NCBI GenBank assembly: GCA_903861205.1
Contig: CAIOTC010000020.1
Coordinates: 133,273 to 197,272, forward strand
Reading direction: 5' to 3'
DNA length: 64,000 nucleotides
DNA from: an uncultured bacterium
Lineage (GTDB): Bacteria; Patescibacteriota; Minisyncoccia; Phycocordibacterales; DATDWN01
Shown: positions 5,457-44,508 of the stretch, in pieces
Layout of the letters: each line of letters opens with the position of its first letter
Numbering within the stretch: position 1 is the first letter of the stretch
Position numbers and translations under genes: made by a program
Notes under the pieces: model-generated
Told to the model about the DNA's origin: nothing
Seen by the model: only the letters and a program-made list of their open reading frames with translations
The model's database searches: none

Positions 5457-5736
5457 TGGGTAACTTATTCGCGTCGGGTAACCGCCGCGATTTTCTTTTT
5501 CAAAAAATCATAAACGAGTTCGGAACCACACTCGGTGAAGTTGGATTACCAACGTACACCAAGTGAGTTTCCTCCACAACCATCATAATCAGTTCGTTGA
5601 AAAGAATTTCGTCTGGCAAAATTATTATTTCTTTAAAAACAATGGGGTTGGTTTAGTTGTCTGTTGTCATTCCCGCGTATGCGGGAATCTAGGTTTTTAA
5701 GATCTGGATCCCCGCCTGCGCGGGGATGACAAATGC

Positions 5737-23366: not shown

Positions 23367-24061
23367 TTAGATAGATATTTTCATTCCTGGTCCAATATAT
23401 TCAATTTTGTCACCAACATCCTTTATCGCTTGCCCATCCTGTAATAGATACACCTTCCATGGAAAATCCATTATCGTTTGCAAATATTTTTTTCGCTCAG
23501 TGTATTTTTTCACATTTTCAGATTCGTTACTTTCTTTTTGGTGTGGAAGCAAAATAAAGTCAGTGATTTTTAATCCGACATGGTCAGTTGGATCATTCGG
23601 CTCCCACCAACCAAATCCAATATCTGGCCCAAGTAGACAACTACCAGCACTTGTGCCAATATACACCACACCCTTATCGAGCAAATTTTTCAGATATGTG
23701 TCCAATTTTGATTTCTTCGCCCAGTCAAGCAAATAGTTCACATCGCCACCGCAAACATCGATAATATCCACACTATTCAATTTTTCTTTTATTTTTTCCG
23801 AGTCATCTTTCAAATCTGCAACCACCACATCATATCTTTTTTCTTTTAGTATAAATATTCCTTGCTCGCTTCCACTTTATTTTCGCTGATTAACTTTGCA
23901 ACAAATTTTGTGCTGTCGGTTGAATATGGGCCCCATTCAATAATATCGCCAGCTGTCGGTATTAGTGCGACTTTTAGATTTGTTTTGCCACCAGTGATCT
24001 CTAGAAAGTCTTTTTCCAGAGAGGAACCGATAAAGCCATTTGATGTTAGAAGTAAATTCAT
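23367..24061 (-). pseudogene. pepE: peptidase E / S51 dipeptidase gene split into two ORFs (23846..24061 N-terminal part, 23367..23828 C-terminal part)
   Basis: N-terminal LLLTSNG...ALIPTAG and C-terminal GTSAGS nucleophile motif lie in separate ORFs. Confidence 0.6.
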
Positions 24062-24558
24062 TTATTTAATTTTTCTTTCATCTCCAATGCTCGCTCCACA
24101 AGTCGATCTCCGATTTTTCCCCAGTCAAAATATTTTTTGAAATCTTTTGGATCAATAAGTTTAATTTCTGAAATATCTCCATCTGGATCAGATTCAAAAT
24201 CTCCGTATGGTTCGACGATGGCAAACATTCTAAACTGTCTTTGAATTCTATTTTCTCCTGGTGTCTCGATGTCTTGATAGCCAATACATTCCTGACGGAG
24301 AACTTTCATATTTGATTCTTCTTTTATTTCTCTTACTGAAGCATCCTCGTATGTTTCGCCTTTTTCAATACTTCCACCAGGAGGAGTCCATCTACCATTT
24401 TCATGTCCAACAATTACCAGTTTGTTATTATAAAAACAGAAAGCATGTACGCCATCTAGCATTTTTGGATCTGTTTCAGCGGTTGGCACACCGTCATGAT
24501 AAGTGAAATTGAATATTTTCCCATCATATTCAAATTGTGATTTTATTTCCATATTCAT
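24058..24558 (-). CDS. Nudix hydrolase
   Basis: Nudix box GGSIEKGETYEDASVREIKEESN. Confidence 0.85.
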   Translation of the reverse strand: MNMEIKSQFEYDGKIFNFTYHDGVPTAETDPKMLDGVHAFCFYNNKLVIVGHENGRWTPPGGSIEKGETYEDASVREIKEESNMKVLRQECIGYQDIETPGENRIQRQFRMFAIVEPYGDFESDPDGDISEIKLIDPKDFKKYFDWGKIGDRLVERALEMKEKLNK

Positions 24559-24607
24559 TAGTATAACTTATTATTTTTTGACTTCATAGTTAAACATAGG
24601 TGCTGGC

Positions 24608-24635
24608 TTGACAGAAAGACAAATTCGTGTATAAT
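24608..24635 (+). promoter_or_regulatory. consensus sigma-70-type promoter TTGACA-N16-TATAAT driving the GC-rich cassette
   Basis: cTTGACAgaaagacaaattcgtgTATAATagaca, followed by an SD and an ATG. Confidence 0.55.
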
Positions 24636-24673
24636 AGACATCGGAATAAAAGTTCACCGACATAGGAGATTCA

Positions 24674-24853
24674 ATGCTTAAATACAGGCTTTTCTTGTTG
24701 TTTTGGGTCCTCGTTTGGGGCTGGGTAGCATTTCGTTGCTTCCAAGTTCTGCCCTACAAGACCCCTGGAGTGCTCTGCACGATCAGCGTTTCGCTGGCGA
24801 TGGTGGCATTTGCCATCACTTTTCACAAATCGATGAAGCACCACTTCGACTAA
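24674..24853 (+). CDS. small membrane protein (59 aa, hypothetical)
   Basis: GGAG SD 7 nt upstream; two hydrophobic segments. Confidence 0.35.
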   Translation: MLKYRLFLLFWVLVWGWVAFRCFQVLPYKTPGVLCTISVSLAMVAFAITFHKSMKHHFD

Positions 24854-24866
24854 ACAAGGAGAAACA

Positions 24867-25184
24867 ATGATTCGACTCATAGCGATGCTTTCTTTCTATG
24901 CTGTGGCATTCGTGCCTGGCTGGTTTGCATTCCAGGAGCTTCGTCAGACTTTCTACGAACTCCGTGGCCTGCAAGCTCACTACAGTTTCGCACAAGAGAT
25001 GACCGTTCGTGGTCACATCTTTGCGGCACTGATTCTCATGATAGTCGCCATGGCAATTGCATGGGTCGGCGATCGTGTGAGTGAGACGAAAGAAGAACGC
25101 GAACGCATGAAAAGAATTCGTTTCGAAGAACACGAACGCGAACTTCAAAACTATATGCGTCCTCGGCCACTTCTCCGTAGGTAA
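24867..25184 (+). CDS. hypothetical membrane protein (105 aa)
   Basis: AAGGAGA SD upstream; two TM helices then a charged tail. Confidence 0.4.
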   Translation: MIRLIAMLSFYAVAFVPGWFAFQELRQTFYELRGLQAHYSFAQEMTVRGHIFAALILMIVAMAIAWVGDRVSETKEERERMKRIRFEEHERELQNYMRPRPLLRR

Positions 25185-25330
25185 TGGGTTGAGACCCCAA
25201 GCAACAGTAAAGGAATCTCCAAAACCTGCAACGCAGGTGTCCGACAATCGTCGGACTTCTACCATAGAAAATTTGAAAAAGTTTTCTGCGGTGGGAGCAA
25301 TCCCTTATCTGTTCTTTGAGGAGATAGACG

Positions 25331-25618
25331 ATGAATACGCCGAGTGTCAAAATCAACTTTCGTGGATTCGAGATTTCAATCGGCATGAGCGAATGTTGGG
25401 TCGGTTGCAACATACTGCCCATGCGTCCAGCCATCATGGTTAACAAGGACGGCAAAGAAGTTGCAATGATTTATTCCACTGGCCGTTCCAACACGGACAA
25501 CAATACCACTCTCGAGGTGGATGGCGAAGTACTGTTCGGGGTCATGCGGGAAATCATCAAAAAAGACCCAGTCGGCCCGATTCGGTTGCCTGAAGGTGAT
25601 GGAGCCATCGAGTACTAG
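25331..25618 (+). CDS. hypothetical protein (95 aa)
   Basis: GAGGAG SD upstream; followed by a GGGCGAC/GTCGCCC hairpin terminator. Confidence 0.35.
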   Translation: MNTPSVKINFRGFEISIGMSECWVGCNILPMRPAIMVNKDGKEVAMIYSTGRSNTDNNTTLEVDGEVLFGVMREIIKKDPVGPIRLPEGDGAIEY

Positions 25619-25630
25619 GTGTTCTTTATA

Positions 25631-25660
25631 GGGCGACGCAGTTTGTCGCCCCTTGTATTC
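25631..25660 (+). terminator. intrinsic terminator hairpin gggcgac-gcagttt-gtcgccc
   Basis: 7-bp GC stem immediately after the 25331..25618 stop. Confidence 0.4.
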
Positions 25661-25726
25661 AGATCATAACGAAAGTTGTGATCTGAAATTCAGGAATCAA
25701 GTGTTCTTTCACAAGGAGCTTTAACC

Positions 25727-26116
25727 GTGCGACAAATAGTGACTTTTGATATGGTTCTCATGGCTTGCCAGCTTGAGAGGTTCTACGAGCTGTATCTGCA
25801 CATTCTCGCGGCAACGTGGGCAAATCAAGAGGCCACCTGTCGCAAACTCGGCATGACCGACTATGATCCTCAGTGCATCAAGCTGAGTTACGAGATGGTG
25901 ATCTTCACAATCCGTAAACGTGCTTCTGGTACACTGATGTGGCATGCTTCGCTCGAACGGAGACCCATCCAGCAACCGAGAGGAATAATCATCCTCGGTT
26001 CATCTTCAAAAGATACAATCAGTGAGATTCTGGCGACAATCGAGCCAAGGACGACTGAGCTTGGGATGTTCCTGAAAATGGAGCACTCTGAGGAATCTTC
26101 TGGAGGAATGTACTAG
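25727..26116 (+). CDS. hypothetical protein (129 aa, GTG start)
   Basis: AAGGAG SD 6-7 nt upstream of the GTG. Confidence 0.35.
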   Translation: MRQIVTFDMVLMACQLERFYELYLHILAATWANQEATCRKLGMTDYDPQCIKLSYEMVIFTIRKRASGTLMWHASLERRPIQQPRGIIILGSSSKDTISEILATIEPRTTELGMFLKMEHSEESSGGMY

Positions 26117-26173
26117 TTCGGTTGAACTCGGCGAGCAGTTTTGATACAATTCCAATCAGAAAAAGGAGAGCAC

Positions 26174-26281
26174 ATGGGACAGTTTGGTTCCAAGGGCGGG
26201 CTGGTCAGGTTGGTTCCGCTCAAGAGCAATCGCAAAGAAAAGGATGCCGACAAAAAGGCACCCAAAAAGGCCGCTCAGTAG
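26174..26281 (+). CDS. small peptide (35 aa), paralog of the next ORF; N-terminus MGQFGSKGG
   Basis: AAAGGAGAG SD; shared N-terminal motif with 26292..26420. Confidence 0.35.
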   Translation: MGQFGSKGGLVRLVPLKSNRKEKDADKKAPKKAAQ

Positions 26282-26291
26282 GAGGACTACG

Positions 26292-26420
26292 ATGCCTGGA
26301 TTCGGCTCGAGGGGAGGATTCCGAGACCTAGGGGCTAATGTTAAGCCCACGAGGACGTTTTCTCCGCCCAAACCCGTGCAAAAAGAAACTGCACCGACTA
26401 CTACCAAACCGAAGTCGTAA
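26292..26420 (+). CDS. small peptide (42 aa), N-terminus MPGFGSRGG, Pro/Thr/Lys-rich C-terminus
   Basis: Perfect AGGAGG SD 6 nt upstream; followed by an intrinsic terminator. Confidence 0.35.
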   Translation: MPGFGSRGGFRDLGANVKPTRTFSPPKPVQKETAPTTTKPKS

Positions 26421-26449
26421 CAAATCGGTTGATTCAAAAGAAAGGAGGT

Positions 26450-26481
26450 CCGCCCGCATGTAATGTGCGGGCTTTCGTTTT
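26450..26481 (+). terminator. Rho-independent terminator gcccgca-tgtaatg-tgcgggc + TTTCGTTTT
   Basis: 7-bp GC-rich stem plus U-tract closing the GC-rich cassette. Confidence 0.55.
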
Positions 26482-27202
26482 ATATATTTCCCAAAAATAC
26501 TTTTTCTAAAATTCCAGAATCCATCAAATTTTTAGGCTTGCCTTCAGCCACAATGTTTCCTTTATCCAAAACGTAAGTCCTGTGTGCAATTTCATTTACC
26601 GATTTTAGATTATGCTCAACTATCACAATAGATATTTTACGAGCTTCATTTATGTGTTTTATTTTTTCAAAAACTTCTTTAACAATTTTTGGTGCAAGTC
26701 CGATTGAAGGTTCATCAAGCAGTAGCACTTTTGGATCTGTCATCATTCCACGAGCAATAGCCAACATTTGCTGTTGACCGCCAGAAAGATGTCCTGACAA
26801 TTCTTTCAGTTTTGGTTTGAGTGCTGGAAACAAATCCAAAACTTCCGCGATTCTCTCTTTTATTTCATTTTTTGATTCAACTGTGTAAGCACCGATTTCT
26901 AAATTTTCTTTAACCGTCAAACTGGAGAAAACTCGTCGGCCTTGTGGCACATATGAAATACCTCTGTCTATCATCTCGCGTGTCTCTGGTGAAATTTCCT
27001 TTTCATGCCACAAAACTTTCCCAGAGTGAATTGGAATAAGTCCGAATACAGCTTTCAATATCGTGGATTTACCAGCTCCGTTTGGTCCCATCAATGCCAC
27101 AATTTCACCTTCATCCACAAACATGGAAATACCATCGAGAGCTTTCAAACTTCCGTAGTTCACATGCAAATTATTCAGTTGTAATAATTTTTCTTTGTCC
27201 AT
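26480..27202 (-). CDS. livF: branched-chain amino acid ABC transporter ATP-binding protein LivF
   Basis: GPNGAGKSTILK Walker A, LSGGQQQMLAIARGM signature. Confidence 0.85.
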   Translation of the reverse strand: MDKEKLLQLNNLHVNYGSLKALDGISMFVDEGEIVALMGPNGAGKSTILKAVFGLIPIHSGKVLWHEKEISPETREMIDRGISYVPQGRRVFSSLTVKENLEIGAYTVESKNEIKERIAEVLDLFPALKPKLKELSGHLSGGQQQMLAIARGMMTDPKVLLLDEPSIGLAPKIVKEVFEKIKHINEARKISIVIVEHNLKSVNEIAHRTYVLDKGNIVAEGKPKNLMDSGILEKVFLGNI

Positions 27203-29756: not shown

Positions 29757-29785
29757 TTGACATAGCTTATGTAAAGGTGTATAAT
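29757..29785 (+). promoter_or_regulatory. consensus promoter TTGACA-N17-TATAAT, shares the GTGTATAATAGA -10 region with the promoter at 24608
   Basis: cattgacatagcttatgtaaaggtgtataatagaaa followed by an AAGGAGA SD. Confidence 0.55.
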
Positions 29786-29822
29786 AGAAAGTAGAAAAGT
29801 TCAATTTCAAGGAGAATACACA

Positions 29823-30674
29823 ATGAAGATTTTGGCTGAAGAAGGAATCGCTAATACTCTGGGAACCATGTTCTCGGATCTCAACAACAAAGACTTCTAC
29901 ATTGTCCAACTGGAACCAGCGGGTTCTGGCTACAACAGGCAGGACATCCACGGCCTCGACACAACACTCGAAATTGTCGACAAAGGTCTTCCGATCGTCA
30001 TGCTCGGCTGGCTTACACCAGCCATGTACATCGACAAGAAATCCGAGAAGTGGTTTGCGGCGACGGGTTATCCGAATGTGATATTCCTTCGATTACCCGC
30101 AACTTCGGAAGAAGTACTTGCTGCAATCGAGATGGTGAAGACCAGCAACCGCCCCTCTGATCCTCTGGCGATTGCTTTACTCGGCGTTGCTCAAACGAAC
30201 AGCGATATTGGAATTCTGCACCATGACCTCTATTCCGCTGAACGGGATGCTGATCGTATGACGCAGTGGGAAAAGAGGGCACGAAAAGTTTTCGGCGACA
30301 AGAATCAAGCCGAACTCATCTCGCTCGTCATGGAAGCTGCACCGACGCGAAACTCTTCCAGCAAGCTTGCTGGACAGAAATTCCCCGATGTCTGCATTGA
30401 TGTTGAGGGAACAATCCTGACCACTGACGGCCAGATCCGCTCCGAGGTTATCACCATGGCTGAAGAAAAAGCTGACGGCGGTCCGATCACGGTGTGGACT
30501 GGTGGCGACATCCACATACTCTCACAGCAACTTCGCAAAGCTGGCATTCTCTATAAAATCATTTCGAAAGAGATGATGCGAGGTGCCACAGTTCGAGTGG
30601 TGATCGACGACCAACCCGAAGTCGCCTTCAAAAGTGAGTATGGAATCGATTGCGAAGAGTATATTCAAGTCTAG
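29823..30674 (+). CDS. hypothetical protein (283 aa; C-terminal HAD-like DVEGT motif is weak), inserted opposite to the liv operon
   Basis: Own promoter, SD and terminator; GC about 50 % versus about 40 % in the surroundings. Confidence 0.45.
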   Translation: MKILAEEGIANTLGTMFSDLNNKDFYIVQLEPAGSGYNRQDIHGLDTTLEIVDKGLPIVMLGWLTPAMYIDKKSEKWFAATGYPNVIFLRLPATSEEVLAAIEMVKTSNRPSDPLAIALLGVAQTNSDIGILHHDLYSAERDADRMTQWEKRARKVFGDKNQAELISLVMEAAPTRNSSSKLAGQKFPDVCIDVEGTILTTDGQIRSEVITMAEEKADGGPITVWTGGDIHILSQQLRKAGILYKIISKEMMRGATVRVVIDDQPEVAFKSEYGIDCEEYIQV

Positions 30675-30697
30675 AGTTCGTTTCGACGGACTAAAGC

Positions 30698-30735
30698 AAA
30701 GCCCCCAGTTTTTTGCTGAGGGCTTTTTCTTTTAA
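30698..30735 (+). terminator. intrinsic terminator aaagcccccag-ttttttg-ctgagggcttttt
   Basis: Imperfect 10-bp stem + U-tract right after the 29823..30674 stop. Confidence 0.45.
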
Positions 30736-33874: not shown

Positions 33875-35125
33875 TTATTCGTAGCGGAGCGCTTCTATCG
33901 GATCCATCTTTGCTGCCGAGCGTGCCGGAAAAACTCCGAAAAATATTCCGATGACGGCCGAAACACCGAAGCCCAAAACGATAGCATAAAACGGCACGGA
34001 AAATGCCCAGGCCAAATGGGCCGAGGCGGCGGCAATGGAAACCACCCAGCCCAGGAACGCGCCGAAAGCGATGCCAACAATCCCGCCAAAAATTGTCACC
34101 AAAACAGCTTCAAGCAAAAATTCGTTCAAAATGTCCGCTTCTCGCGCGCCAAGCGCTTTTTTGAGTCCGATTTCGGACGTGCGCTCGGTCACCACCACGT
34201 ACATGATGTTCATAATCCCAACTCCGCCGACCAAGAGCGAGATGGCCGCGATGGCGATGAGTAGATACGTGATACCGTTAAAAATGGTGTTAAACGTGTC
34301 CATGGCTTGTGCTTGCGATTGCACGACAAAGTCGTCTTTGGCCGGATCGGTGATGTTGTGATTGTGCTCCATGAGTGAATTTATTTGGGCGATGGTCGAA
34401 TCGGCCGCGTTCAAATCGGACAGTTCCACGATGCCAACTGAAATGTAATCGATGCCGAGCATTTTTCTCTGGGCCGTAACAAGTGGCATAAAAACAATGT
34501 TGTCCGACTCGGAAAGCGCGCCCTGCGTTTCGTAAACGCCGACCACTTGAAAATTTAAATTGCCGAGACGCAAAAGTTTGCCGATCGGATCGTCCTGACC
34601 AAAAAGATCCTTAGCGATCGTAGCCCCGAGAATCACCACTTGCGCGCCACCGGTATCCTCGGCTTGCGTGTAAAAGCGACCCTCGGCTAATTTGGTTTTG
34701 TCGATGTTGAAACGCTCAGCCGACGCGCCGTAATAAATAGTGCTTTTTTTGTTATCGCGATAACTGGCAAGGGCTTGCCCGGTAACAATGCCGTAGTCGT
34801 CAACCACACCGGAAAGTTTTTTGATATCGTCGAGATCGCGCTGTTTGAAACTGCTCACAACCACGCCGGAAAAAGCCGAGGAGAGGCCGGCTTGCGAAGC
34901 CGAGGCGGCCCGATTTTTGGTCGTTGGCGGAACGCGAATTTTGATGAAAAGCGTGTTACTGCCGAAAGCTTCGACTTGCGCGTTGATGAGCGAACGGAAG
35001 CCGGCGCCGGCCGAGAGCACTAAAATAACCGTGCTGATGCCAATGATAATCCCGAGCATGGTCAAAGCCGTCCGACCGGGATTCGAACGCAAGGCTTTGA
35101 TGGATTGTTTCAAGGCGGTAAGCAT
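33875..35125 (-). CDS. ABC transporter permease, MacB/FtsX family
   Basis: N-terminal TM, large periplasmic domain, C-terminal FtsX 3-TM bundle. Confidence 0.85.
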   Translation of the reverse strand: MLTALKQSIKALRSNPGRTALTMLGIIIGISTVILVLSAGAGFRSLINAQVEAFGSNTLFIKIRVPPTTKNRAASASQAGLSSAFSGVVVSSFKQRDLDDIKKLSGVVDDYGIVTGQALASYRDNKKSTIYYGASAERFNIDKTKLAEGRFYTQAEDTGGAQVVILGATIAKDLFGQDDPIGKLLRLGNLNFQVVGVYETQGALSESDNIVFMPLVTAQRKMLGIDYISVGIVELSDLNAADSTIAQINSLMEHNHNITDPAKDDFVVQSQAQAMDTFNTIFNGITYLLIAIAAISLLVGGVGIMNIMYVVVTERTSEIGLKKALGAREADILNEFLLEAVLVTIFGGIVGIAFGAFLGWVVSIAAASAHLAWAFSVPFYAIVLGFGVSAVIGIFFGVFPARSAAKMDPIEALRYE

Positions 35126-35216
35126 GGTGGAAAATTTTTAATTTTTAATTTAAAATTTTTAATGAATTTTTAAATTAAAATTTGATCATTGCAAATTCAT
35201 TTTAAATTTTAAATTG
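35126..35216. repeat. AT-rich intergenic repeat, copy 3
   Basis: Between the two tandem permease genes. Confidence 0.55.
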
Positions 35217-36488
35217 TTATTCATATCTCAGTGCCTCAATCGGATCGAGTTTCGCCGCTTTGTACGACGGATACAAACCGAAAATAACGCCTGTCAAAAT
35301 GGAAACCCCGACAGCAGAAATAATCGACATTGGCGAAATAACAAAAGCCCAATCGTAACCGAGATATTGCATCAAAATGGCCATGAGGAAAGAAACAATC
35401 GCGCCGAGAACAATTCCGATGAATCCTCCGATCGATGTCAGTGTGCCGGCCTCGAGCAAAAATTGGTTTCGGACATTTGAATTCGTCGCGCCAACCGCTT
35501 TGCGCAAACCGATCTCGCGTGTTCTCTCGGCCACCGTCACCAGCATAATATTGAGAATGCCGATACCGCCGACGAGAAGCGCGATGGCCGCCATCGACGT
35601 CAAAAATAAACTCAAAGCCGAGGTGATGGTGGTGAGCAGCGAAACCGCCGTGGCCGTACTGCGCACAGTAAAATCGATATTGTCGATACTTTGAATGTGA
35701 TGTGTCTGCGACAAAACTCTGGTAACGTCGGCAATAGTTTGATCGATATTTTCCGAGGCATCAACTTTCAAATTGATGGCTTGCAAATAATGGATGCCGA
35801 GAAGCTGTCCTTGGCCAATGGCTATTGGCAAAAAAACTTGGTCGTCTTGGTCCTGGAAAAAAACTGTACCGCGAGGAGTGACCACGCCGACAACGCGCAG
35901 TGGAACTCCGCCGGGTTGCGACTGCGAAGCACTGCGAACTTTGACCACTTGTCCAATCGGATCAACACCGGTGCCGGCGAAAAGTTCGTTGGCCACCGTT
36001 GAACCGAGCACGACAACATTGGCTCCCCCGTCAGCGTCTTGCGGCGCCATGAATTGGCCTTCTTGCATCGTAATATTGACCACTTTGGTGTAACCGGAAT
36101 CGGTCCCGACGAAATTTGTGTCCGCGGTTTTGTTTTGCCAAGCCACGGTCACCGTTCCGCGCACCAAGGAGTTGACCGCGACTGAATGCGGAACATTTGT
36201 CGGACTACGCAGAGCGTCGGCGTCAGTGTTAACAAGCGAGGTTGTAATAATTCCGTAAACTTGCGCCGGCGGACCTTTCGGATCGCTCGCGCCCGGTTGG
36301 ATGGAAAGTAAATTCGAACCAAGCTTGTTGACCTGACCAAGCACCAGAGTCTGCGCTCCGGCGCCGAGAGAAATGATAATAATAACTCCAGCCACCCCAA
36401 TAACAATACCGAGCATGGTCAAAAACGACCGGCCCTTGCGCGCCATTAAATTGCGAATGGTCATTTTGATGGTGGAAAGAAAGTTCAT
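35217..36488 (-). CDS. ABC transporter permease, MacB/FtsX family (tandem paralog)
   Basis: Same architecture as 33875..35125; C-terminus KLDPIEALRYE shared. Confidence 0.85.
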   Translation of the reverse strand: MNFLSTIKMTIRNLMARKGRSFLTMLGIVIGVAGVIIIISLGAGAQTLVLGQVNKLGSNLLSIQPGASDPKGPPAQVYGIITTSLVNTDADALRSPTNVPHSVAVNSLVRGTVTVAWQNKTADTNFVGTDSGYTKVVNITMQEGQFMAPQDADGGANVVVLGSTVANELFAGTGVDPIGQVVKVRSASQSQPGGVPLRVVGVVTPRGTVFFQDQDDQVFLPIAIGQGQLLGIHYLQAINLKVDASENIDQTIADVTRVLSQTHHIQSIDNIDFTVRSTATAVSLLTTITSALSLFLTSMAAIALLVGGIGILNIMLVTVAERTREIGLRKAVGATNSNVRNQFLLEAGTLTSIGGFIGIVLGAIVSFLMAILMQYLGYDWAFVISPMSIISAVGVSILTGVIFGLYPSYKAAKLDPIEALRYE

Positions 36489-36605
36489 AAATACAAATTT
36501 TTAATTTAAAATTTAGAATTTAGAATGAATTTAAAATGACAAAATTTAAAAATTTAAAATTCTAAATTTATTTTAAATTATAAATTCTAAATTTTAAATT
36601 GTATT
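36489..36605. repeat. AT-rich intergenic repeat, copy 4
   Basis: Between the permease and the ABC ATPase. Confidence 0.55.
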
Positions 36606-37322
36606 TTACTTCTTCAACACTCCATCAGCCGTGGCGATTGTGCGCTTGGTCACTTTTTCATCGCCGACAATCATGCCGTCTTTGATGTGAATGATGCGTT
36701 TGGCGTGATTGGCCGTGTCCATTTCGTGAGTGACCAATATAATAGTGTGTCCTTTGTTGTTGAGCTCCTGCAAAATGGACAACACGGAATTGCCGGATTT
36801 CGAATCAAGATTTCCTGTCGGTTCGTCGGCAAAAATAACGGCCGGGTCGCACACGAGAGCGCGAGCGATGGCCACGCGCTGTTTTTCGCCGCCGGAAATT
36901 TGGTTGGTGAAAAATTCCAAACGATGCGACAGCCCGACAGCCGCCAGCGCTTTTTTGGCCAAGTCTTCCTGGTTTAATTTTTTGCTGTAAATGAGTGGCA
37001 ACCGGACGTTGTCAAGAACTGTCGTGCGTGGTAAAAGGTTGAACGATTGGAAAACGAAACCAATACGCTCGTTGCGGAGTTTGGCCAAATAATCTTTGTC
37101 GAAATTTTTGGTGTCGCGGCCTTCAAACTCAAAAAGTCCGGATGTCGGCCGATCGAGAAAACTCAAAATGTGCATCAAGGTCGATTTGCCGGATCCGGAC
37201 GGTCCCATGATGGCCACGAATTCACCGAGCTCCATGTTGAAATCGACGCCGTGCAAAACCGGAGTCAAAACTCCTTCGTTCTCGTAATCCTTTTTCAGAT
37301 TTTCTACGTGGATTAAACTCAT
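36606..37322 (-). CDS. ABC transporter ATP-binding protein (MacB/LolD-type)
   Basis: [39 protein letters not shown]. Confidence 0.9.
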
Positions 37323-37449
37323 AAGTATACTAATCTGCGAATAATTCTCCCTTTCCTAAAGGGAGTGGCCGAAGGCCGAGGGATTTTTTAATTTCAAAAT
37401 CCTCCGCCCTGCGGGCACCTCCTTTAAAAAAGGAGGAGTGATGCTGTGT

Positions 37450-39000
37450 TTATTTAATATATGTGACTATTTCCTGACCTTCCGTCAACCCAGACAAAAC
37501 TTCCGTAAATCCGCCATCCGCTTCCAGCCCGGTCGTCACTTCCACTTCGTGGTAAGTTTTCTTTTTCGGATCATCGATCACTTTGACATAACGTTTTTCA
37601 GATCGATTAACGATCGCTCCGGACGGAATAGCCAGAACACCTTTTTTCTCCGCCACCAAAATAGTCATGTTGGCGGTCATGCCCGGTTTGACTTGCGGAA
37701 TATTTTCGAGCGAGCCGGTCACTTTGTAATCAACCACGCCAGAAATAACAGTTGAGGCCGGATTGACGGTCAGAACTGTGCTTTTGAAATGCTGGTACGG
37801 ACCGAGCGCGTCGAACGTGTTGTCGATCGTCTGTCCGACGCCGACGGAGGCAATGTCCGCTTCGCTGACCAGTGCTTCGGTGTGCAACTGTCCGACATTT
37901 TGAAGCTTCATCGCTTCTTTCATGGCTTGAGCTTGTTCGCCGAGTTTGACATCCACCTGCGTAATCGTTCCGTTTGCCGGCGCGACCAAAACGGTGTTGT
38001 CCAAAATAACTTGAGCGGCTTGAACTTGCGCCGCCGCAATATCGACATCTTCCTGCCTGGCCGGCGCTTGCTTCAAAGATAACGCCGCCTGCGCCTGACT
38101 CAAGCTGGCCTGCGCGCTTTTAACCGCCTGACTGTAGGTTGTGACGGCCGTGTAAGCAGCGTCCACAGTTGATTTGCCAGAAACAACCGAGGCGGCATCG
38201 GACGAAACAGTCGCTTGACTACCACCGGAAGTGACCTGTGTGTACGATGTTAAAAGACTGATGACGTCCGTCATGTAATTACTCACAGCAAAAAGATTGG
38301 CGAGCGAATCCGTTGTCACTTTGTCAACGCTGCTTTCGGACAAAGTGGAAATTTCTGTCTGCCATAAAACCAGAGACGAATTGATCGCCGCTCTTTCACT
38401 ATTCACGCTACTTGCCAATTGCTGATTGGTTATAACCGTGCCGGGAATGCCGAACTGCGGATTGGATGATTGAGAGTTCGAAAACAAAGCGTTCGTGTTG
38501 GACAGTACGGCCGTGTTGGCGTTGTTGTATGCAGTGGAAAGCCCATTAAACAAATTTTGTTTGGCATTCGAAAGCGCGGTTGTCGCGGTGTCAACGGCAG
38601 CCTGACTAACAGCCACGTCCTGCGGAGTCGCGGCCGCTTTCACTTTTTCATAACTCGCTTTGGCCGAGGCCAGAGAGGCCAGGGCGCTGCTTTGATCGAG
38701 CACGGCCAGCGTTTCCCCCGCCCCCACTTTATCGCCTTCTTTGACGTTGATTCGTCTGACAATTCCGCCCGTCTGGAAGCCCAAATCGAGGTCGGTCGAG
38801 CTGACAACCTGTCCGGTGGTCAAAACGGTTTTCTCGATGTCCATTCGCTTGACAAAATCAGTCTGAATGTTACCGCCGGCTGATTTTCGGCCAAATAAAA
38901 ACCACCCTCCAAAAAGGACGAGAAGTATAATTACGGTCCAAATTATTTTTTTTCTGGTAAAAAAAGCCTTAACTCGTTCAATAAATGTTTGTAGTTGCAT
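37450..39000 (-). CDS. efflux periplasmic adaptor subunit (HlyD/MacA-like) with long Ser/Ala/Thr-rich coiled-coil hairpin
   Basis: N-terminal TM, lipoyl/beta-barrel motifs, very long alpha-helical insertion. Confidence 0.72.
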   Translation of the reverse strand: MQLQTFIERVKAFFTRKKIIWTVIILLVLFGGWFLFGRKSAGGNIQTDFVKRMDIEKTVLTTGQVVSSTDLDLGFQTGGIVRRINVKEGDKVGAGETLAVLDQSSALASLASAKASYEKVKAAATPQDVAVSQAAVDTATTALSNAKQNLFNGLSTAYNNANTAVLSNTNALFSNSQSSNPQFGIPGTVITNQQLASSVNSERAAINSSLVLWQTEISTLSESSVDKVTTDSLANLFAVSNYMTDVISLLTSYTQVTSGGSQATVSSDAASVVSGKSTVDAAYTAVTTYSQAVKSAQASLSQAQAALSLKQAPARQEDVDIAAAQVQAAQVILDNTVLVAPANGTITQVDVKLGEQAQAMKEAMKLQNVGQLHTEALVSEADIASVGVGQTIDNTFDALGPYQHFKSTVLTVNPASTVISGVVDYKVTGSLENIPQVKPGMTANMTILVAEKKGVLAIPSGAIVNRSEKRYVKVIDDPKKKTYHEVEVTTGLEADGGFTEVLSGLTEGQEIVTYIK

Positions 39001-41552: not shown

Positions 41553-42116
41553 TTACCTCGTCTCGTAACCCTGCACAAGCTCGCCGATTTCCATATTTTT
41601 TTCGTCCAAATGAACCCAGATGCTTTTCCCGAGCGACGGTTGAACAGCAAAACTCTCGCCTGGATTTCTGTCAGCGTAGTTAACCACCGCTACGCCTTTT
41701 TGAATTTCGATATTTTGCGGAGCGATTCTGTCGCCGACAAACATGGCGTTTGTCCCTTTGTACACACCGCCTTTATTTATTGCCTCAACCACGTAAAAAA
41801 ATGTTCCGCTGCCACCAGAGTTCTCGGTCAAATACATCACTGCGTCACTCACTCCATCGCCATTTAGGTCGCCGTAAACCGGCTGGCCGAAAACCGCCAC
41901 ATTATCTTTTTCCGCTTTGCCGTTTACCAGCCTAAAATATTTTCCGGCAACATTGTAAGTGATATTGAGCGGATCGTTTTTGACCGTTTTCGTTTTGTCA
42001 TATTTCAAAATAAAATTGACCACATTCCCAACCCACAATTTCTGCGTGGCTAAAAGTCCGAGCCCGATGATTATCAAAACCAAAAGCACGATTTGAAGCG
42101 TTTTGTTGTTTGTCAT
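41553..42116 (-). CDS. hypothetical membrane-anchored protein
   Basis: N-terminal TM, soluble beta-rich domain. Confidence 0.45.
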   Translation of the reverse strand: MTNNKTLQIVLLVLIIIGLGLLATQKLWVGNVVNFILKYDKTKTVKNDPLNITYNVAGKYFRLVNGKAEKDNVAVFGQPVYGDLNGDGVSDAVMYLTENSGGSGTFFYVVEAINKGGVYKGTNAMFVGDRIAPQNIEIQKGVAVVNYADRNPGESFAVQPSLGKSIWVHLDEKNMEIGELVQGYETR

Positions 42117-42299: not shown

Positions 42300-43030
42300 C
42301 CCTGTCGAGGCCTGATTCTCTCGGTGCGGCCTGCATTAATCCCCACCACGACGATTCTGGCCGGCGTGCACGGCTCCTACAACGCCGTCTGGGTGAAGGG
42401 CGTTTACGGGGAAGATACGTTCTACTATGGCCGCGGCGCGGGATCGCGGCCCACCGGTGTAGCGGTGGCGAGCGACCTGATGCGGGTGGCGCGCGAGATT
42501 CGCAACGGCAGCCCGCAGCGCGTCTCGCCGTTCGCGCACGAGCGGCTGGGCGAATACAAGCCCGTCCCGGTGACGGTGCAGCGGCGCGGCCGCCGGCCCG
42601 GCAACGCGCGCGAGCTGCGCAACGCGGTGGCGCCTTCCCGGCCGCTGCACACCTGTGCCGGACAATCACACCGGCCTCGCGGCAAGCGGCCTGATTTCAG
42701 TAGTTTAGAATGTGGAATCGCGGTTGCATCACAGGCCGCAACGGCGAGCCAGCCGCGCGCGATACGCTCGTCGGTGCGGCTGGTGACCGGGTAAGACGAG
42801 GCCTCCCCGCGCGTGCCGTCGGCGCGGCTGTATCGCACGGTCGCCGTGAAGGTGCGGTGGCGGGCTTGATATCGCGGTGCACGATGCCGCGGCCAAGCCG
42901 CACCTGGCGCCGTCAGCGATCCGGCTGCCCGGCGGGCGCAGCGACGGGTTGTTGGTGAAAGCCAGGTCGGTATTCGAGCTCGCCGCCAGGCTTGGGCGAG
43001 GGTGGCGTCGTCCGCCATTACAGCCCACTC
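42300..43030. other. approx. 0.7-kb foreign DNA segment with about 70 % GC embedded in a 40 % GC genome
   Basis: Abrupt composition shift; long spurious ORFs on both strands typical of high-GC DNA. Confidence 0.7.
42324..42500 (+). pseudogene. C-terminal catalytic-domain fragment of a homoserine dehydrogenase from a high-GC donor (70 % GC)
   Basis: ILAGVHGSYNAVWVKGVYGEDTFYYGRGAGSRPTGVAVASDLMRVAREI matches the HSD FYGRGAG..PTA.AV..D region; no ACT domain follows. Confidence 0.45.
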
Positions 43031-43186
43031 ACTACCCGCCCATATTCCATTGCCAAAGTATACGCTCTTTGTTTGTAATGAAGAACATAAGTCCACCGGC
43101 TGCTGCGCAGAAGCAGAAACAACAACGCAGAAAGTAAGGCCAGCCCGCAAGAATAGTGATGTGCACATGTAATAGTTCTCCACTAG

Positions 43187-44047
43187 CTAATTGGATAGAG
43201 TATCCATATTGAACGAACACGCCGTATTTTGAATGTTGTCTGGTAGTAGGGTAAACACTTGTCCGTTGGTGCGAGCAGCTGCCGTGTCATGAGCTTTGAT
43301 TCTGTCGGTGGTATTAAGCATCTGTGCTAGCACTTGTCTCCAAATTCCCTGGTTACGTTTTCCCAGATAGTCTAAGCACTCAATTGAGTCGATCTCTGCT
43401 ACACCCGCATCAGTTGCCTGTTGATCAGTCTGCGAAAGTAACGCATGTTGGATAGCCACGGCCTGCTCTTTCAGTGCCTCTCGGTGACGAGCAGAATCCG
43501 GCGCCGAAAAGATAATCAGTCGCTGAACATCATCCCTCACGCCATCACCGTCTGAGTCTATACCGGCAATGGTCGCTTTTCCCGCCACGCCAGGATCGGG
43601 TGGAAGCACGACTGGAATGGTCGTCGGTGCCAAGGCAGCAAACTGAAGGACTGGCGACAACACTCGCTTCAATTGTCCTGGAAAGGCGGCGGACACTTGA
43701 AAGTTGAAGGAGGCCGGCTGAGCCTCGTTGAGCGTGAGGACAGCTGTGAAGACCTTATCCCCAGCCTTCACATCCCCTGCTTTCCCGTTATCCCCCATCG
43801 TGGCGACAATGGTCTGTACGCCGGCTGAGTTAAGCCGAAGCAGATTAACGCCCGTAGGGATAGCAGACGGCGTGCCGGAAAGATCCACGGTGAACGTCAC
43901 TTGAGTCGGCGTGTTAACCACGACAAGACCGGGCGTTGCGATTGGCGCAGCAATCGTGGGCGGATTTTGCCCATACAGCAGAATCCCGCCCAGCACGAGG
44001 CAAGCGACAAGACCGCACCCGAAGAATAGAACAGATTTGTATTTCAT
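43187..44047 (-). CDS. hypothetical secreted protein (signal peptide; about 55 % GC)
   Basis: MKYKSVLFFGCGLVACLVLGG signal/TM; composition differs from the host. Confidence 0.5.
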   Translation of the reverse strand: MKYKSVLFFGCGLVACLVLGGILLYGQNPPTIAAPIATPGLVVVNTPTQVTFTVDLSGTPSAIPTGVNLLRLNSAGVQTIVATMGDNGKAGDVKAGDKVFTAVLTLNEAQPASFNFQVSAAFPGQLKRVLSPVLQFAALAPTTIPVVLPPDPGVAGKATIAGIDSDGDGVRDDVQRLIIFSAPDSARHREALKEQAVAIQHALLSQTDQQATDAGVAEIDSIECLDYLGKRNQGIWRQVLAQMLNTTDRIKAHDTAAARTNGQVFTLLPDNIQNTACSFNMDTLSN

Positions 44048-44051
44048 ATTC

Positions 44052-44327
44052 TTAAGGAGTAAATGCCCGTTGCCGGGCTGCTACCGCGACCGCGGTAAGC
44101 ATGGTTAGTAATAAAACAATGGACGACGGTTCCGGCACCGTTGTTATCGTGGCGTCATCCATTACAAATGAGTTGCCTACGTCCGGAGCTCCCGTAATCA
44201 TAACACTGGAGATTCCGTTTGCGAAATCCACAGACAAAAACTCGTTCGGGGTGCCGCCAGTGTCGGATGATGTGAAGTTGCTGTCGAACGCCGAGACACA
44301 TGACACAGTCAAGCAAGCCAACGCCAC
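44052..44327 (-). CDS. PEP-CTERM sorting-signal protein (possibly 5'-truncated; GTG start, no good signal peptide)
   Basis: C-terminus TVPEPSSIVLLLTMLTAVAVAARQR = PEP motif + TM + basic tail. Confidence 0.45.
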   Translation of the reverse strand: MALACLTVSCVSAFDSNFTSSDTGGTPNEFLSVDFANGISSVMITGAPDVGNSFVMDDATITTVPEPSSIVLLLTMLTAVAVAARQRAFTP

Positions 44328-44508
44328 AATGAAAAACGCCAGGAAGGCTATGGGAAAGCTGAATAATGTTCAGCAGGTCGCCGTTCTCGCCGGCCCAGGT
44401 CTCATGGTTGCCGGCTTCGTCGCCGGTTCAATGTCAGCCAAAGTGACTAAACCGGAGGATCTGCCATAGTCCAGGCCGTCCCAACCGCCCCGCGCCCGTC
44501 ACCAGACG

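What the first reader, a model, noticed from the sequence alone, without database searches (positions are those of the whole stretch)
24600..26481. GC-richer, SD-bearing expression cassette ending in two tandem paralogous small-peptide genes (candidate novel peptide system)
Between the Nudix gene and livF lies a 1.9-kb block of about 50 % GC with its own consensus promoter (TTGACA-N16-TATAAT at 24608-24635). Every gene in it has a canonical Shine-Dalgarno 5-8 nt from the start codon (GGAG, AAGGAGA, GAGGAG, AAGGAG, AAAGGAGAG, AGGAGG). Native genes in this window have no SD. The block has two intrinsic terminators. It encodes two small membrane proteins (59 and 105 aa), 95- and 129-aa unknowns, and finally two adjacent peptides: MGQFGSKGGLVRL... 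(35 aa) and MPGFGSRGGFRDL... (42 aa). The peptides share the N-terminal motif M-x-x-F-G-S-[KR]-G-G-[LF]-x-[RD]-L and have divergent Lys/Pro/Thr-rich tails. A conserved N-terminal leader with variable cores, small membrane proteins upstream and a dedicated promoter and terminator resemble a bacteriocin/RiPP-precursor or toxin-immunity style locus, but no recognisable modification enzyme is present. Composition and translation signals argue for recent acquisition from a different lineage.
Basis: partly seen in the sequence, partly recalled or inferred. Interest (0 to 1): 0.7.

Follow-up and report, generated by a model that had tools for sequence, protein, structure and literature searches.

The report
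Mobile self-expressed ORFan cassette with micropeptides
A 1.9-kb block in an uncultured Patescibacteria genome is a real, horizontally moving mini-operon with its own promoter, ribosome-binding sites and terminator; it is built from regulatory modules shared with many metagenomic gene arrays, including a structured RNA motif absent from Rfam, and it encodes a conserved micropeptide family, but nothing supports a bacteriocin or RiPP cluster.

Summary
A 12/12 sigma-70 promoter (24608-24635), six Shine-Dalgarno-led ORFs and terminators are present. SD use is 7/7 for cassette genes against 1/56 for host ORFs (p=1e-8). GC (0.48) stands out only against the flanks, because 16% of host ORFs reach 0.49.

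The five ORFs shared with a related strain (L056) are under purifying selection (dN/dS 0.10-0.39). Their synonymous divergence (0.4-1.0) is far below that of the flanking liv genes (about 2.8 to saturated). The cassette therefore moved or was homogenised after the hosts split.

The RiPP/bacteriocin reading is not supported: there is no modification enzyme, peptidase or exporter, and no Pfam, PHROG or PADLOC hit.

The block is built from modules reused elsewhere:
- A conserved promoter module (CTTGACAGAAAG...GTGTATAAT) drives unrelated cargo genes.
- The 146-nt spacer at 25185-25330 is a structured motif absent from Rfam 15. It has 74 distinct copies in about 55 contigs, 94% pairing and 18/23 covarying pairs. 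It often occurs in arrays, two of which carry hammerhead ribozymes.
- The 95-aa gene is a cassette-wise insertion bounded by GTTCTTT.
- The peptide N-terminus MGQFGSKGGLxRLxPLKS recurs in other Patescibacteria and in a tRNA-rich phage contig.

A second cassette of the same design lies at 29757-30733. Protein functions remain unknown.

The parts
24608..24635 (+). Consensus sigma-70 promoter. It is part of a conserved promoter/leader module, CTTGACAG(A/G)AAG-N11-GTGTATAAT-AGA..GGAAT..AAAAGTTC..AGGAGA.
   Evidence: 12/12 match. The same module heads different cargo genes in L056 (two sites), L060, L061, L091 and L137. Homology between the window and L056 begins at about the -35 hexamer.
24674..24853 (+). 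59-aa protein with two hydrophobic, TM-like segments; SD AGGAGA.
   Evidence: 88% identical in L056, dN 0.064, dS 0.65. A 36%-identical homolog lies in L125, a contig that carries the motif. No Pfam hit.
24867..25184 (+). 105-aa protein with two hydrophobic segments and a charged C-terminal helix; SD AAGGAGA.
   Evidence: Small family of about 10 clusters at 28-65% identity in 1.84 billion representatives. dN/dS 0.15. In L138 a 35%-identical homolog is also followed directly by the RNA motif.
25185..25330 (+). Structured intergenic element (covariance-model match 25209-25319). Hairpins at 25186-25197, 25225-25237 and 25239-25256, and a long hairpin at 25256-25297 (CUUCUACC...GGUGGGAG). These are followed by CAAUCCC and then GTTCTTT (25311-25317) and the SD.
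   Evidence: Covariance model R1 scores 99.4 bits on the + strand and 15.5 bits on the - strand. There are 89 hits (74 distinct): 94% paired, 18/23 pairs with compensatory change, covariation score 0.483 against 0.188 in shuffles (0/500) and at most 0.156 in slid controls; U.G wobbles are conserved. Folding z-score -5.0. No Rfam 15 match.
25331..25618 (+). 95-aa gene, a variable cassette that is absent from the otherwise collinear L056.
   Evidence: L056 goes directly from the motif to the 129-aa gene. The extra 392 bp in the window is bounded by GTTCTTT at 25311 and 25703, with a third copy at 25621 just after the stop codon. Homologs at about 43% identity exist (P0028, P0029, P0039, L131).
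25619..25726 (+). Second spacer. It holds a terminator-like hairpin (25631-25651), a 12-bp GAAA-loop hairpin (25659-25686), GTTCTTT (25703-25709) and the SD.
   Evidence: Folding z-score -7.0. The layout hairpin-spacer-GTTCTTT-SD matches the 3' half of the motif (read).
25727..26116 (+). 129-aa soluble protein with a ferredoxin-like alpha+beta fold.
26174..26281 (+). 35-aa micropeptide, MGQFGSKGGLVRLVPLKS plus a basic tail.
   Evidence: Conserved in L056, L060, L061, L095 and clusters P0017, P0018 and P0037. It is 16/18 identical to ORFs in two IMG/VR contigs, with many synonymous changes and two Ser codon-family switches. dN/dS 0.12.
26292..26420 (+). 42-aa paralogous micropeptide, MPGFGSRGG..., with a Pro/Thr/Lys tail.
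   Evidence: Found only in the window lineage and L056. The N-terminus and the C-terminal PTTxKPxS are conserved, and the middle differs by in-frame indels. dN/dS 0.39.
26452..26481 (.). Intrinsic terminator whose U tract overlaps the livF stop codon. It could plausibly terminate both convergent units.
   Evidence: 9-bp stem with 6 GC pairs, followed by TTTCGTTTTA. The same arrangement occurs in L056.
29757..30733 (+). Sister cassette outside the given coordinates: a 12/12 promoter (29757-29785), SD AAGGAGA, a 283-aa ORFan (29823-30674, GC 0.50) and a terminator (30698-30726 plus U tract). It is inserted between livH and livK on the opposite strand.
   Evidence: Homologs lie at the same or similar liv-associated sites in L056 (70% identity) and L060 (76%). 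No Pfam or PADLOC hit.

Best explanation
The block 24608-26481 is a moron-like, horizontally mobile expression cassette inserted downstream of livF in a Patescibacteria (Taylorbacteria-like) chromosome.

Shown:
- It carries a complete signal set: a strong sigma-70 promoter module, an SD for every gene, and a terminator.
- The five ORFs that could be compared with L056 are real genes under purifying selection. The 95-aa gene is absent from L056, so it has no dN/dS; it is supported by homologs at about 43% identity.
- It is much less diverged between two host lineages than the host genes around it.
- It is assembled from reusable modules that recur with unrelated ORFan cargo in many metagenomic contigs. 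These are the promoter/leader module, a roughly 110-nt structured intergenic motif ending in GTTCTTT, and short hairpins.

Inferred:
- The unit is transcribed as one roughly 1.85-kb mRNA.
- The intergenic motif acts on the sense RNA as a processing or stability signal. Its long 17-19-bp helix would suit RNase III or a dedicated RNA-binding protein, and it would play the role that hammerhead ribozymes play in sister arrays.
- The repeated modules also provide the homology or core site (GTTCTTT) through which genes such as the 95-aa ORF are gained and lost.
- The cargo is two small membrane proteins, a ferredoxin-fold protein and two basic micropeptides whose conserved 18-residue N-terminus also occurs in a phage. 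It most likely belongs to the phage/mobile-element accessory gene pool (conflict or host-manipulation functions) and is not a peptide-antibiotic pathway.
For: - Signals.
- Coding: dN/dS 0.10-0.39 for the five shared ORFs, with indels in multiples of three.
- Mobility: cassette dS 0.41-0.98 and nucleotide identity 0.86-0.88 for the three larger genes, against liv genes with dS about 2.8 to saturated and nucleotide identity 0.71-0.75. The block is absent downstream of livF in the Taylorbacteria MAG L009. The left neighbour differs: Nudix in the window, NTP_transf_2 in L056.
- Promoter module: shared by the 59-aa, 283-aa and 446-aa cargo genes.
- RNA motif: 74 distinct copies, strong covariation, strand-specific wobble pairs, and up to 6 same-strand copies per contig spaced about 250-1000 nt apart between small ORFs.
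- Hammerheads: type III hammerheads with intact cores lie in two such arrays. Bacterial hammerheads are known to flank genes in prophage-like polycistronic RNAs (PMC3088659).
- Cassette-wise indel: bounded by GTTCTTT.
- Sporadic cargo homology across motif-bearing contigs: 59-aa with L125, 95-aa with L131, 129-aa with L062, 105-aa with L138.
- Mobile-element flavour: a large serine recombinase lies directly upstream of motif plus ORFs in L109/L134. Sigma70_r4+alpha-CTD proteins occur as cargo.
- Peptide in phage tRNA-array contigs.
Against: - No recombinase, transposase or direct-repeat boundary was found at the window locus itself.
- The motif, the promoter module and the 129-aa and 105-aa families were not found in IMG/VR contigs, and the motif was not found in INPHARED phages or PLSDB plasmids. 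A phage origin therefore rests on the peptide and on analogy.
- Cassette modules sit in or beside liv operons in four genomes (window, L056, L060, L061). This could mean a functional tie to the transporter and not an insertion hot spot.
- There are no expression data.
- RNA versus single-stranded DNA function of the hairpin cannot be separated by sequence alone.
- The lower dS could partly reflect codon or GC constraint.
Confidence: 0.6

Rival explanations
1. RiPP or bacteriocin-type locus. The two peptides are precursors with a short conserved leader ending in Gly-Gly, followed by variable cationic cores. The small membrane proteins act as immunity or export factors.
For: - The N-terminus is conserved, the tails vary, the genes are duplicated in tandem, and small membrane proteins lie upstream.
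- A MacB/HlyD-type exporter exists 7-12 kb away at 33875-39000.
Against: - The six proteins give no hit to any modification enzyme, C39 peptidase or ABC exporter.
- Nine residues before the GG is far shorter than known double-glycine leaders (established knowledge).
- The tails are Lys/Pro-rich and look disordered, with no Cys or hydrophobic pattern.
- In the phage contigs, homology ends at residue 18 and the ORF runs into a tRNA gene.
- In L060, L061 and L095 the peptide occurs without the membrane-protein genes.
Confidence: 0.07
2. A vertically inherited, lineage-specific accessory operon functionally tied to the Liv-type ABC transporter. It would not be mobile DNA.
For: The 129-aa-plus-peptide module and the 283-aa ORF lie inside or beside liv operons in the window, L056, L060 and L061.
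Against: - dS is several-fold lower than in the adjacent liv genes.
- The block is absent from L009.
- Gene content and positions differ in each genome.
- The same modules occur away from liv genes (L095, L062, L063).
- Translation signals are foreign to the host.
Confidence: 0.1
3. A toxin-antidote, superinfection-exclusion or abortive-infection module. A small membrane protein (59 or 105 aa) would be the effector and the other products would modulate it.
For: - Both proteins have two hydrophobic segments, and the 105-aa protein has a holin-like layout with a charged C-terminus.
- There are weak sub-threshold PHROG and Pfam phage hits (phrog_736 E=0.024; Phage_Gp23 E=0.1).
- A moron-type context is typical for such genes (established knowledge).
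Against: There are no significant matches in PADLOC, Pfam or PHROGs. There is no antisense RNA or antitoxin signature and no lysin. This is a functional sub-hypothesis compatible with the best explanation, and it has not been tested.
Confidence: 0.15
4. The repeated hairpin-plus-GTTCTTT element works as DNA: either a site-specific recombination site of an integron-like cassette system, or a single-strand origin or promoter. The block would then be a short cassette array.
For: - The 95-aa gene indel is bounded exactly by GTTCTTT, and a third copy follows its stop codon.
- The element precedes each ORF in arrays.
- A serine recombinase is adjacent in L109/L134.
- The strand-specific structure also fits folded single-stranded DNA.
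Against: - No recombinase was found beside the cassette.
- The element is not one long imperfect palindrome. GTTCTTT does not fit the attC R' consensus GTTRRRY (established knowledge), and no inverse core is conserved at the 5' end.
- The element always lies on the sense strand just upstream of an SD, and it co-occurs with hammerhead ribozymes. Both fit an RNA role better.
Confidence: 0.15

Closest known systems
PeSL mobile regulatory cassettes of T4-type phages (Arbiol et al. 2010, PMC2839356; Comeau et al. 2014, PMC4122927)
   Same: In both, small conserved regulatory modules (a strong sigma-70-like promoter plus stem-loops) flank non-essential ORFans. Recombination between the repeated modules produces gene-sized insertions, deletions and replacements. 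Here a conserved 12/12 promoter module and repeated hairpin modules flank ORFans, and a one-gene indel is bounded by a repeated motif.
   Different: This cassette sits in bacterial (Patescibacteria and other) chromosomal contigs, not in a T4-type phage genome. The promoter and the hairpin element are separate modules. The main hairpin element is a roughly 110-nt multi-hairpin motif without a U tract, so it is not a terminator. There is no sequence similarity to PeSLs, and mini-circles were not tested.
Phage morons
   Same: Both are an autonomous transcription unit (own promoter and terminator) inserted between unrelated genes, with signals or composition unlike the neighbours and cargo not needed by the carrier.
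   Different: No prophage surrounds the cassette in the genes examined around it. The unit carries six genes, not one. The link to phages is limited to the micropeptide homolog in two IMG/VR contigs.
Tandem hammerhead ribozymes flanking genes in prophage-like polycistronic RNAs (Perreault et al. 2011, PMC3088659), and RNase III processing hairpins between phage T7 early genes (established knowledge)
   Same: In both, repeated structured RNA elements sit between short genes of mobile-element operons. Sister arrays of the present motif contain bona fide type III hammerhead cores.
   Different: The window motif has no ribozyme core. Its internal mismatch is fully paired in many copies. It matches no Rfam family. 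Cleavage, whether by itself or by RNase III, is untested.
Integron gene-cassette arrays (attC sites)
   Same: Both show arrays of small, mostly ORFan genes separated by conserved structured repeats, cassette-wise presence and absence, and a short conserved core at the junction.
   Different: There is no IntI-type integrase. The core GTTCTTT does not fit GTTRRRY, the element is not an R''-L''/L'-R' palindrome, and it lies 5' of each ORF next to the SD.

Membership tests
RiPP / class II bacteriocin gene cluster | Dedicated modification enzyme, leader peptidase or exporter encoded with the precursor | tested here: not met
   No Pfam, PHROG or PADLOC hit for any of the six products. The neighbours are Nudix and LivF.
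RiPP / class II bacteriocin gene cluster | Precursor with a recognisable leader (for example a 15-30-aa double-glycine leader) and a core peptide | tested here: inconclusive
   A conserved N-terminus ending in GG exists, but it is only 9 residues long. Conservation continues to residue 18. The tails are basic and Pro-rich.
Phage moron / autonomous expression cassette | Own promoter and terminator bracketing the gene(s) | tested here: met
   12/12 promoter at 24608-24635 and terminator at 26452-26472.
Phage moron / autonomous expression cassette | Located within a prophage or phage genome | tested here: not met
   The flanking genes are housekeeping-type (GrpB, S51 peptidase, Nudix, livFGMH/K). 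No phage hallmark gene was seen nearby.
PeSL-type mobile regulatory cassettes | Conserved strong promoter and stem-loop modules repeated beside ORFans, with indels at the modules | tested here: met
   The promoter module is shared by unrelated cargo. The hairpin motif is repeated in arrays. The 95-aa gene indel is bounded by GTTCTTT.
PeSL-type mobile regulatory cassettes | Composite promoter plus terminator in hyperplastic regions of T4-type phages; sequence family of PeSLs | tested here: not met
   The carrier is a bacterial chromosome. The motif lacks a U tract. There was no hit in 50,697 phage records.
Integron cassette array | attC site (R'' RYYYAAC ... R' GTTRRRY imperfect palindrome) and an IntI integrase | tested here: not met
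   The core is GTTCTTT, and no conserved inverse core or closing helix is present. No integrase was seen next to the cassette. An attC covariance model (IntegronFinder) could not be run.
Any Rfam 15 RNA family (for the 25185-25330 element) | Covariance-model match | tested here: not met
   There was no match at the gathering threshold in the window. There was no match on the element at E up to 10 in 24550-26520, or at E up to 1 in L062, L095, L106 and L137, four contigs rich in the motif.
Hammerhead ribozyme (type III) | Core CUGAUGA...GAAA plus a cleavage triplet, with three stems | tested here: not met
   None is present in the window. Hammerheads with an intact core occur only in the sister arrays L095 5866-5919(-) and L062 1-50(+), at 38 and 35 bits, below the gathering score of 48.5.
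Type I toxin-antitoxin | Small hydrophobic toxin with an overlapping antisense RNA | not tested
   The 59-aa protein is hydrophobic, but no antisense promoter or RNA was examined beyond the generic scan.

The most novel reading that the evidence does not exclude
The roughly 110-nt hairpin motif ending in GTTCTTT, together with the shared promoter module, may define a previously undescribed cassette-shuffling system. It would be functionally integron- or PeSL-like but mechanistically distinct, and it would act through a new RNA or single-stranded DNA element. Such a system would distribute ORFan genes across Patescibacteria and unrelated soil and groundwater bacteria. The FGSKGG micropeptides would then be a new phage-derived effector family whose active part is an 18-residue N-terminal module.
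Probability: 0.2. Interest if true: 0.85.

Novelty: new variant of a known kind. Interest (0 to 1): 0.6.

Why it matters
Patescibacteria (CPR) genomes are small, and their gene flow is poorly understood. This locus shows a concrete route for it: complete, portable expression units carry translation signals unlike the host's largely SD-less, apparently leaderless genes, and they are exchanged between lineages after those lineages diverged.

The work also yields three testable items:
- A well-supported structured RNA motif that is not in Rfam. It has 74 distinct copies and co-occurs with hammerhead ribozymes.
- A conserved promoter module reused by unrelated genes.
- A micropeptide family shared between CPR bacteria and a tRNA-rich phage.

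Each could clarify how mobile ORFan genes are expressed, processed and shuffled in uncultured bacteria.

Tried and rejected
- **Word-seeded protein search.** Searching the six proteins concatenated returned nothing, not even the query proteins, although they are cluster representatives in that collection. The exhaustive phmmer search of the same concatenate worked.
- **Genome-contig scan with the 129-aa protein.** No relatives were found.
- **Viral-contig scans.** The motif seed 17-mer gave 18 hits, all chance matches by nhmmer. The stricter motif pattern, the promoter module and the 129-aa and 105-aa family profiles gave no hits.
- **blastn of the motif.** There was no match against INPHARED phages or PLSDB plasmids.
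- **Fold search of the 129-aa model.** It returned only the generic ferredoxin-like fold, with nothing significant in BFVD. The afdb50 library was unavailable.
- **PADLOC, PHROGs and Pfam on the cargo proteins.** All were empty.
- **Closing helix AAAGAAU/GUUCUUU.** I tested whether this pairing encloses the whole motif. The 5' segment is not conserved, so I dropped the idea.
- **N-myristoylation signal (MGxxxS).** I considered this for the peptide. The paralog starts MPG and the hosts are bacteria, so I rejected it.
- **Promoter inside the motif (TTGAAA-N17-AGCAAT).** The putative -35 lies in a variable loop and the -10 lacks the key A2, so I rejected it.
- **Motif as intrinsic terminator.** The U-rich GUUCUUU lies 12-15 nt from the long stem, so I rejected it.
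Full report
**1. Observation**

The features described are present at the stated coordinates. The promoter TTGACA-N16-TATAAT at 24608-24635 is a 12/12 match. Only two such sites exist in the 64 kb.

Six plus-strand ORFs follow: 59, 105, 95, 129 (GTG start), 35 and 42 aa. Each has a canonical SD 4-9 nt upstream.

Hairpin terminators lie at 25631-25651 (poor U tract) and 26452-26472 (good U tract, overlapping the stop codon of the convergent livF).

SD use is 7/7 for cassette genes, counting the sister cassette. It is 1/56 for host ORFs of 120 aa or more (p=1.4e-8). 20/56 host ORFs have a -10-like box 4-10 nt before the start codon, which suggests leaderless mRNAs.

The GC contrast is real locally: 0.484 against 0.354 and 0.395 in the flanks. 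In the window as a whole it is about +1 SD. Ordinary host genes (MacB/FtsX, HlyD, DinB, YchF) are equally GC-rich. The translation and transcription signals are therefore the strong anomaly, not GC.

**2. Host and distribution**

The best genome match for LivF is a Candidatus Taylorbacteria MAG (L009, 74% identity). The host is therefore a Patescibacteria/CPR bacterium.

L009 has an MFS transporter gene downstream of livF and no cassette.

The exact cassette proteins occur on at least 15 metagenome contigs. All those long enough to show flanks have the same Nudix and livF neighbours.

A related organism (L056, Logan SRR9924787) carries the cassette at the same place next to livF. It differs in three ways:
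- It lacks the 95-aa gene.
- Its left neighbour is NTP_transf_2, not Nudix.
- Homology with the window begins at about the -35 hexamer.

**3. Coding and history**

Window against L056 gives these values:

| Gene | dN / dS |
|---|---|
| 59 aa | 0.064 / 0.65 |
| 105 aa | 0.062 / 0.41 |
| 129 aa | 0.052 / 0.53 |
| 35 aa | 0.108 / 0.92 |
| 42 aa | 0.379 / 0.98 |

Peptide indels are in frame. The five shared ORFs are therefore genuine genes.

In the same genome pair the adjacent livF, livG, livM, livH and livK genes have dN 0.11-0.16. Their dS runs from about 2.8 to saturated, and nucleotide identity is 0.71-0.75. The three larger cassette genes have nucleotide identity 0.86-0.88.

The cassette is thus several-fold younger than the host split. 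It was transferred or homogenised between lineages yet sits at the same site. This is better evidence for horizontal movement than composition.

**4. Protein families**

None of the six products matches Pfam, PHROGs or PADLOC.

An exhaustive phmmer search of 1.84 billion representatives found only small families:
- about 10 clusters for the 105-aa protein
- 3 for the 95-aa protein
- 6 for the 129-aa protein
- 1 for the 35-aa peptide
- none for the 59-aa and 42-aa products

The 59-aa and 105-aa proteins each have two hydrophobic segments, as read from the sequence.

**5. Contexts of distant homologs**

- In L060 and L061, a homolog of the 129-aa gene at about 30% identity is followed by MGQFGSKGG... 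peptides. It lies in GC-richer blocks inside liv operons, divergent from a 446-aa ORFan.
- L062 carries the homolog in a run of small same-strand ORFs.
- L063 carries it near a faint Terminase_6C hit (below Pfam's threshold) and a protein with an alpha-CTD domain.

A second cassette of the same design lies at 29757-30733 in the window, between livH and livK. It has a 12/12 promoter, SD AAGGAGA, a 283-aa ORFan with GC 0.50, and a terminator. It has counterparts in L056 and L060.

**6. The key finding: shared regulatory modules**

*(a) Promoter module.* The promoter and leader form a conserved module, CTTGACAG(A/G)AAG-N11-GTGTATAAT-AGA..GGAAT..AAAAGTTC..AGGAGA. It drives unrelated genes:
- the 59-aa gene in the window and in L056
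- the 283-aa gene in L056
- the 446-aa gene in L060 and L061
- other genes in L091 and L137

*(b) Intergenic motif.* The 146-nt spacer at 25185-25330 is a conserved structured element.
- One 50-nt stretch is 98% identical to a copy in L062, although the neighbouring proteins are only about 30% identical.
- A pattern derived from seven copies hit 56 metagenome contigs and no viral contig.
- A covariance model finds 89 copies, 74 of them distinct, on about 55 contigs. There are up to six same-strand copies per contig, spaced about 250-1000 nt apart between small ORFs. Contig GC ranges from 0.41 to 0.58.

The structure has three parts:
- a 5-bp hairpin, CCUGC-NAC-GCAGG
- a variable hairpin with compensatory substitutions
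- a long 17-19-bp hairpin, CUUCCACC...GGUGGGAG

These are followed by CAAUCCC, then GUUCUUU, and usually an SD.

Support for the structure is strong. 94% of cells are paired and 18/23 pairs show compensatory change. The covariation score is 0.483, against 0.188 in shuffles (0/500) and at most 0.156 in slid controls.

U.G wobble pairs are conserved. The window copy scores 99 bits on the plus strand and 15 bits on the minus strand. The structure therefore belongs to the sense strand.

No Rfam 15 family matches the element. The window holds exactly one full copy.

The spacer before the 129-aa gene has the reduced layout hairpin-spacer-GTTCTTT-SD.

*(c) Hammerhead ribozymes.* Two of the arrays contain type III hammerhead ribozymes with complete catalytic cores (L095 and L062). 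This is the arrangement reported for prophage-like polycistronic RNAs (PMC3088659). L095 is a Patescibacteria contig that shares the S51-peptidase neighbourhood with the window.

*(d) Cassette-wise insertion.* The 95-aa gene is an insertion relative to L056. It is bounded by GTTCTTT at 25311 and 25703, and a third copy follows its stop codon at 25621.

*(e) Cargo.* Cargo across motif-bearing contigs is almost all ORFan. Homology to the window genes is sporadic: 59-aa with L125, 95-aa with L131, 105-aa with L138 (again followed by the motif), and 129-aa with L062. Some cargo looks like mobile-element early genes, such as Sigma70_r4+alpha-CTD fusions. In L109 and L134 a large serine recombinase directly precedes the motif plus ORFs.

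**7. The peptides**

The family consensus is MGQFGSKGGLxRxVPxK plus a Lys/Pro-rich tail of 9-18 residues. It is found in the window, L056, L060, L061, L095 and three protein clusters.

The MPGFGSRGG paralog is restricted to the window and L056 lineages.

A back-translated search found the same N-terminus (16/18 identical) in two IMG/VR contigs. The codons differ by many synonymous changes and two Ser codon-family switches, so conservation is at the protein level.

In those contigs the ORF follows a 311-aa protein with an N-terminal hydrophobic segment. It runs into a tRNA-Glu gene after codon 18-19. The surrounding region is an array of at least 23 tRNAs with phage-type genes: Mom-like, endolysin-like peptidase and glycosyltransferase.

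The functional unit is therefore the 18-residue N-terminal module, and the tails are free to vary. This argues against a leader-plus-core RiPP logic. I cannot assign a target. The basic, SPKK-like tails suggest nucleic-acid or membrane-surface binding, which is inference only.

**8. Interpretation**

The block is best described as a moron-like, mobile expression cassette. It is drawn from a pool of ORFan genes that travel with reusable regulatory modules.

The closest described principle is the PeSL mobile regulatory cassette of T4-type phages: a strong sigma-70 promoter plus stem-loops beside ORFans, with recombination between the modules causing gene-sized indels (PMC2839356, PMC4122927). 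The present case differs in three ways:
- The carrier is a bacterial chromosome, mainly CPR.
- Promoter and hairpin are separate modules.
- The hairpin element has a different nature.

I infer that the intergenic motif works in the mRNA as a processing or stability signal, or as a protein-binding signal. Three observations fit this:
- It has a long perfect or near-perfect helix.
- It always lies on the sense strand just 5' of an SD.
- It is interchangeable in position with hammerheads in sister arrays.

A DNA-level role in cassette exchange remains a live rival.

The recurrent placement in liv operons may reflect an insertion hot spot. L009's liv operon is also interrupted, by HicA/HicB-like genes as judged by eye from their sequences, and by a split livG. 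A functional link to the transporter is not excluded.

**9. Verdict**

The "novel peptide system" reading is not supported as a RiPP or bacteriocin cluster, but the peptides are real and conserved. The locus is a new variant of known kinds (morons and mobile regulatory cassettes).

It brings two uncatalogued items: the structured RNA motif and the FGSKGG micropeptide family. All functional claims for the proteins remain hypotheses.

Noticed in passing
window 29757-30733: A second cassette of the same architecture: 12/12 promoter, SD AAGGAGA, a 283-aa ORFan at GC 0.50, and a terminator. It is inserted on the opposite strand between livH and livK. Homologs occur in L056 and L060. By eye, the C-terminal half has HAD-like DxE/DD motifs, but no Pfam hit.
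   Followed up: partly
window 42425-43183 (GC 0.66; 42501-43000 GC 0.71): An extreme GC spike in a 43% GC window. The longest ORF translates to Arg/Ala/Pro-rich low-complexity sequence with no Pfam hit. No tandem repeat and no Rfam hit were found. The neighbouring ORFs 43187-44047 and 44101-44469 (GC 0.52-0.53) are also ORFans.
   Followed up: partly
window 23367-24061: The S51-family peptidase gene appears split into 71-aa and 153-aa ORFs, while its homolog in L095 is a continuous 237-aa protein. This is a likely pseudogene or frameshift.
   Followed up: no
window, many gene starts (e.g. 21492, 41553-42116, 47572-48126, 61038): Host genes commonly have a TATAAT-like box 4-10 nt upstream of the ATG and no SD (20/56 and 1/56 respectively). 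This suggests largely leaderless translation in this Patescibacteria genome.
   Followed up: partly
L095 5866-5919 (-) and L062 1-50 (+): Type III hammerhead ribozymes with complete cores (GUC site, CUGAUGAG, CGAAAC) lie between small ORFs in arrays that carry the new motif. Their scores (38 and 35 bits) are below Rfam's gathering score of 48.5.
   Followed up: partly
L140 2248-2433 and L141 9867-10052: In two IMG/VR contigs the FGSKGG ORF overlaps a tRNA-Glu gene (L140 2304-2380) inside an array of at least 23 tRNA genes. tRNA processing would leave a non-stop mRNA that encodes only the conserved 18 residues.
   Followed up: partly
L095 3138-3788 (-), identical in L128; L063 5532-6380: Cargo proteins fuse a sigma-70 region 4 HTH to an RNA polymerase alpha-CTD-like domain (Pfam E=1e-9 and 1e-18), or carry the alpha-CTD alone. 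These are possible transcription-takeover factors of the element family.
   Followed up: no
L091 about 2890-2930 (-), L137 about 900-935, L062 about 1322-1357, L109, L122: A further small conserved module, GTAAGYCCTGACC-(loop)-GGCAGGC, forms a bulged hairpin. It follows the promoter module or the motif just before start codons in several loci but is absent from the window.
   Followed up: no
L009 1312-3540: The liv operon of the nearest reference MAG is also interrupted. It contains a HicB/HicA-like pair (judged by eye from the sequences), a split livG, and a 145-aa ORFan between livG and livF. The liv region may be an insertion hot spot in this clade.
   Followed up: no
L060 1780-1920 and L061 1985-2125: Divergent promoters of the 446-aa and 127/122-aa genes are arranged as an inverted repeat of the -35-containing 13-mer (AGCTTTCTGTCAA-N11-TTGACAGAAAGCT). 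This could be an operator.
   Followed up: no
window 5632-5701 (-): A weak partial match to the motif model (19.9 bits, E about 0.01) covers only the first hairpin and the 3' tail. It is probably chance.
   Followed up: no
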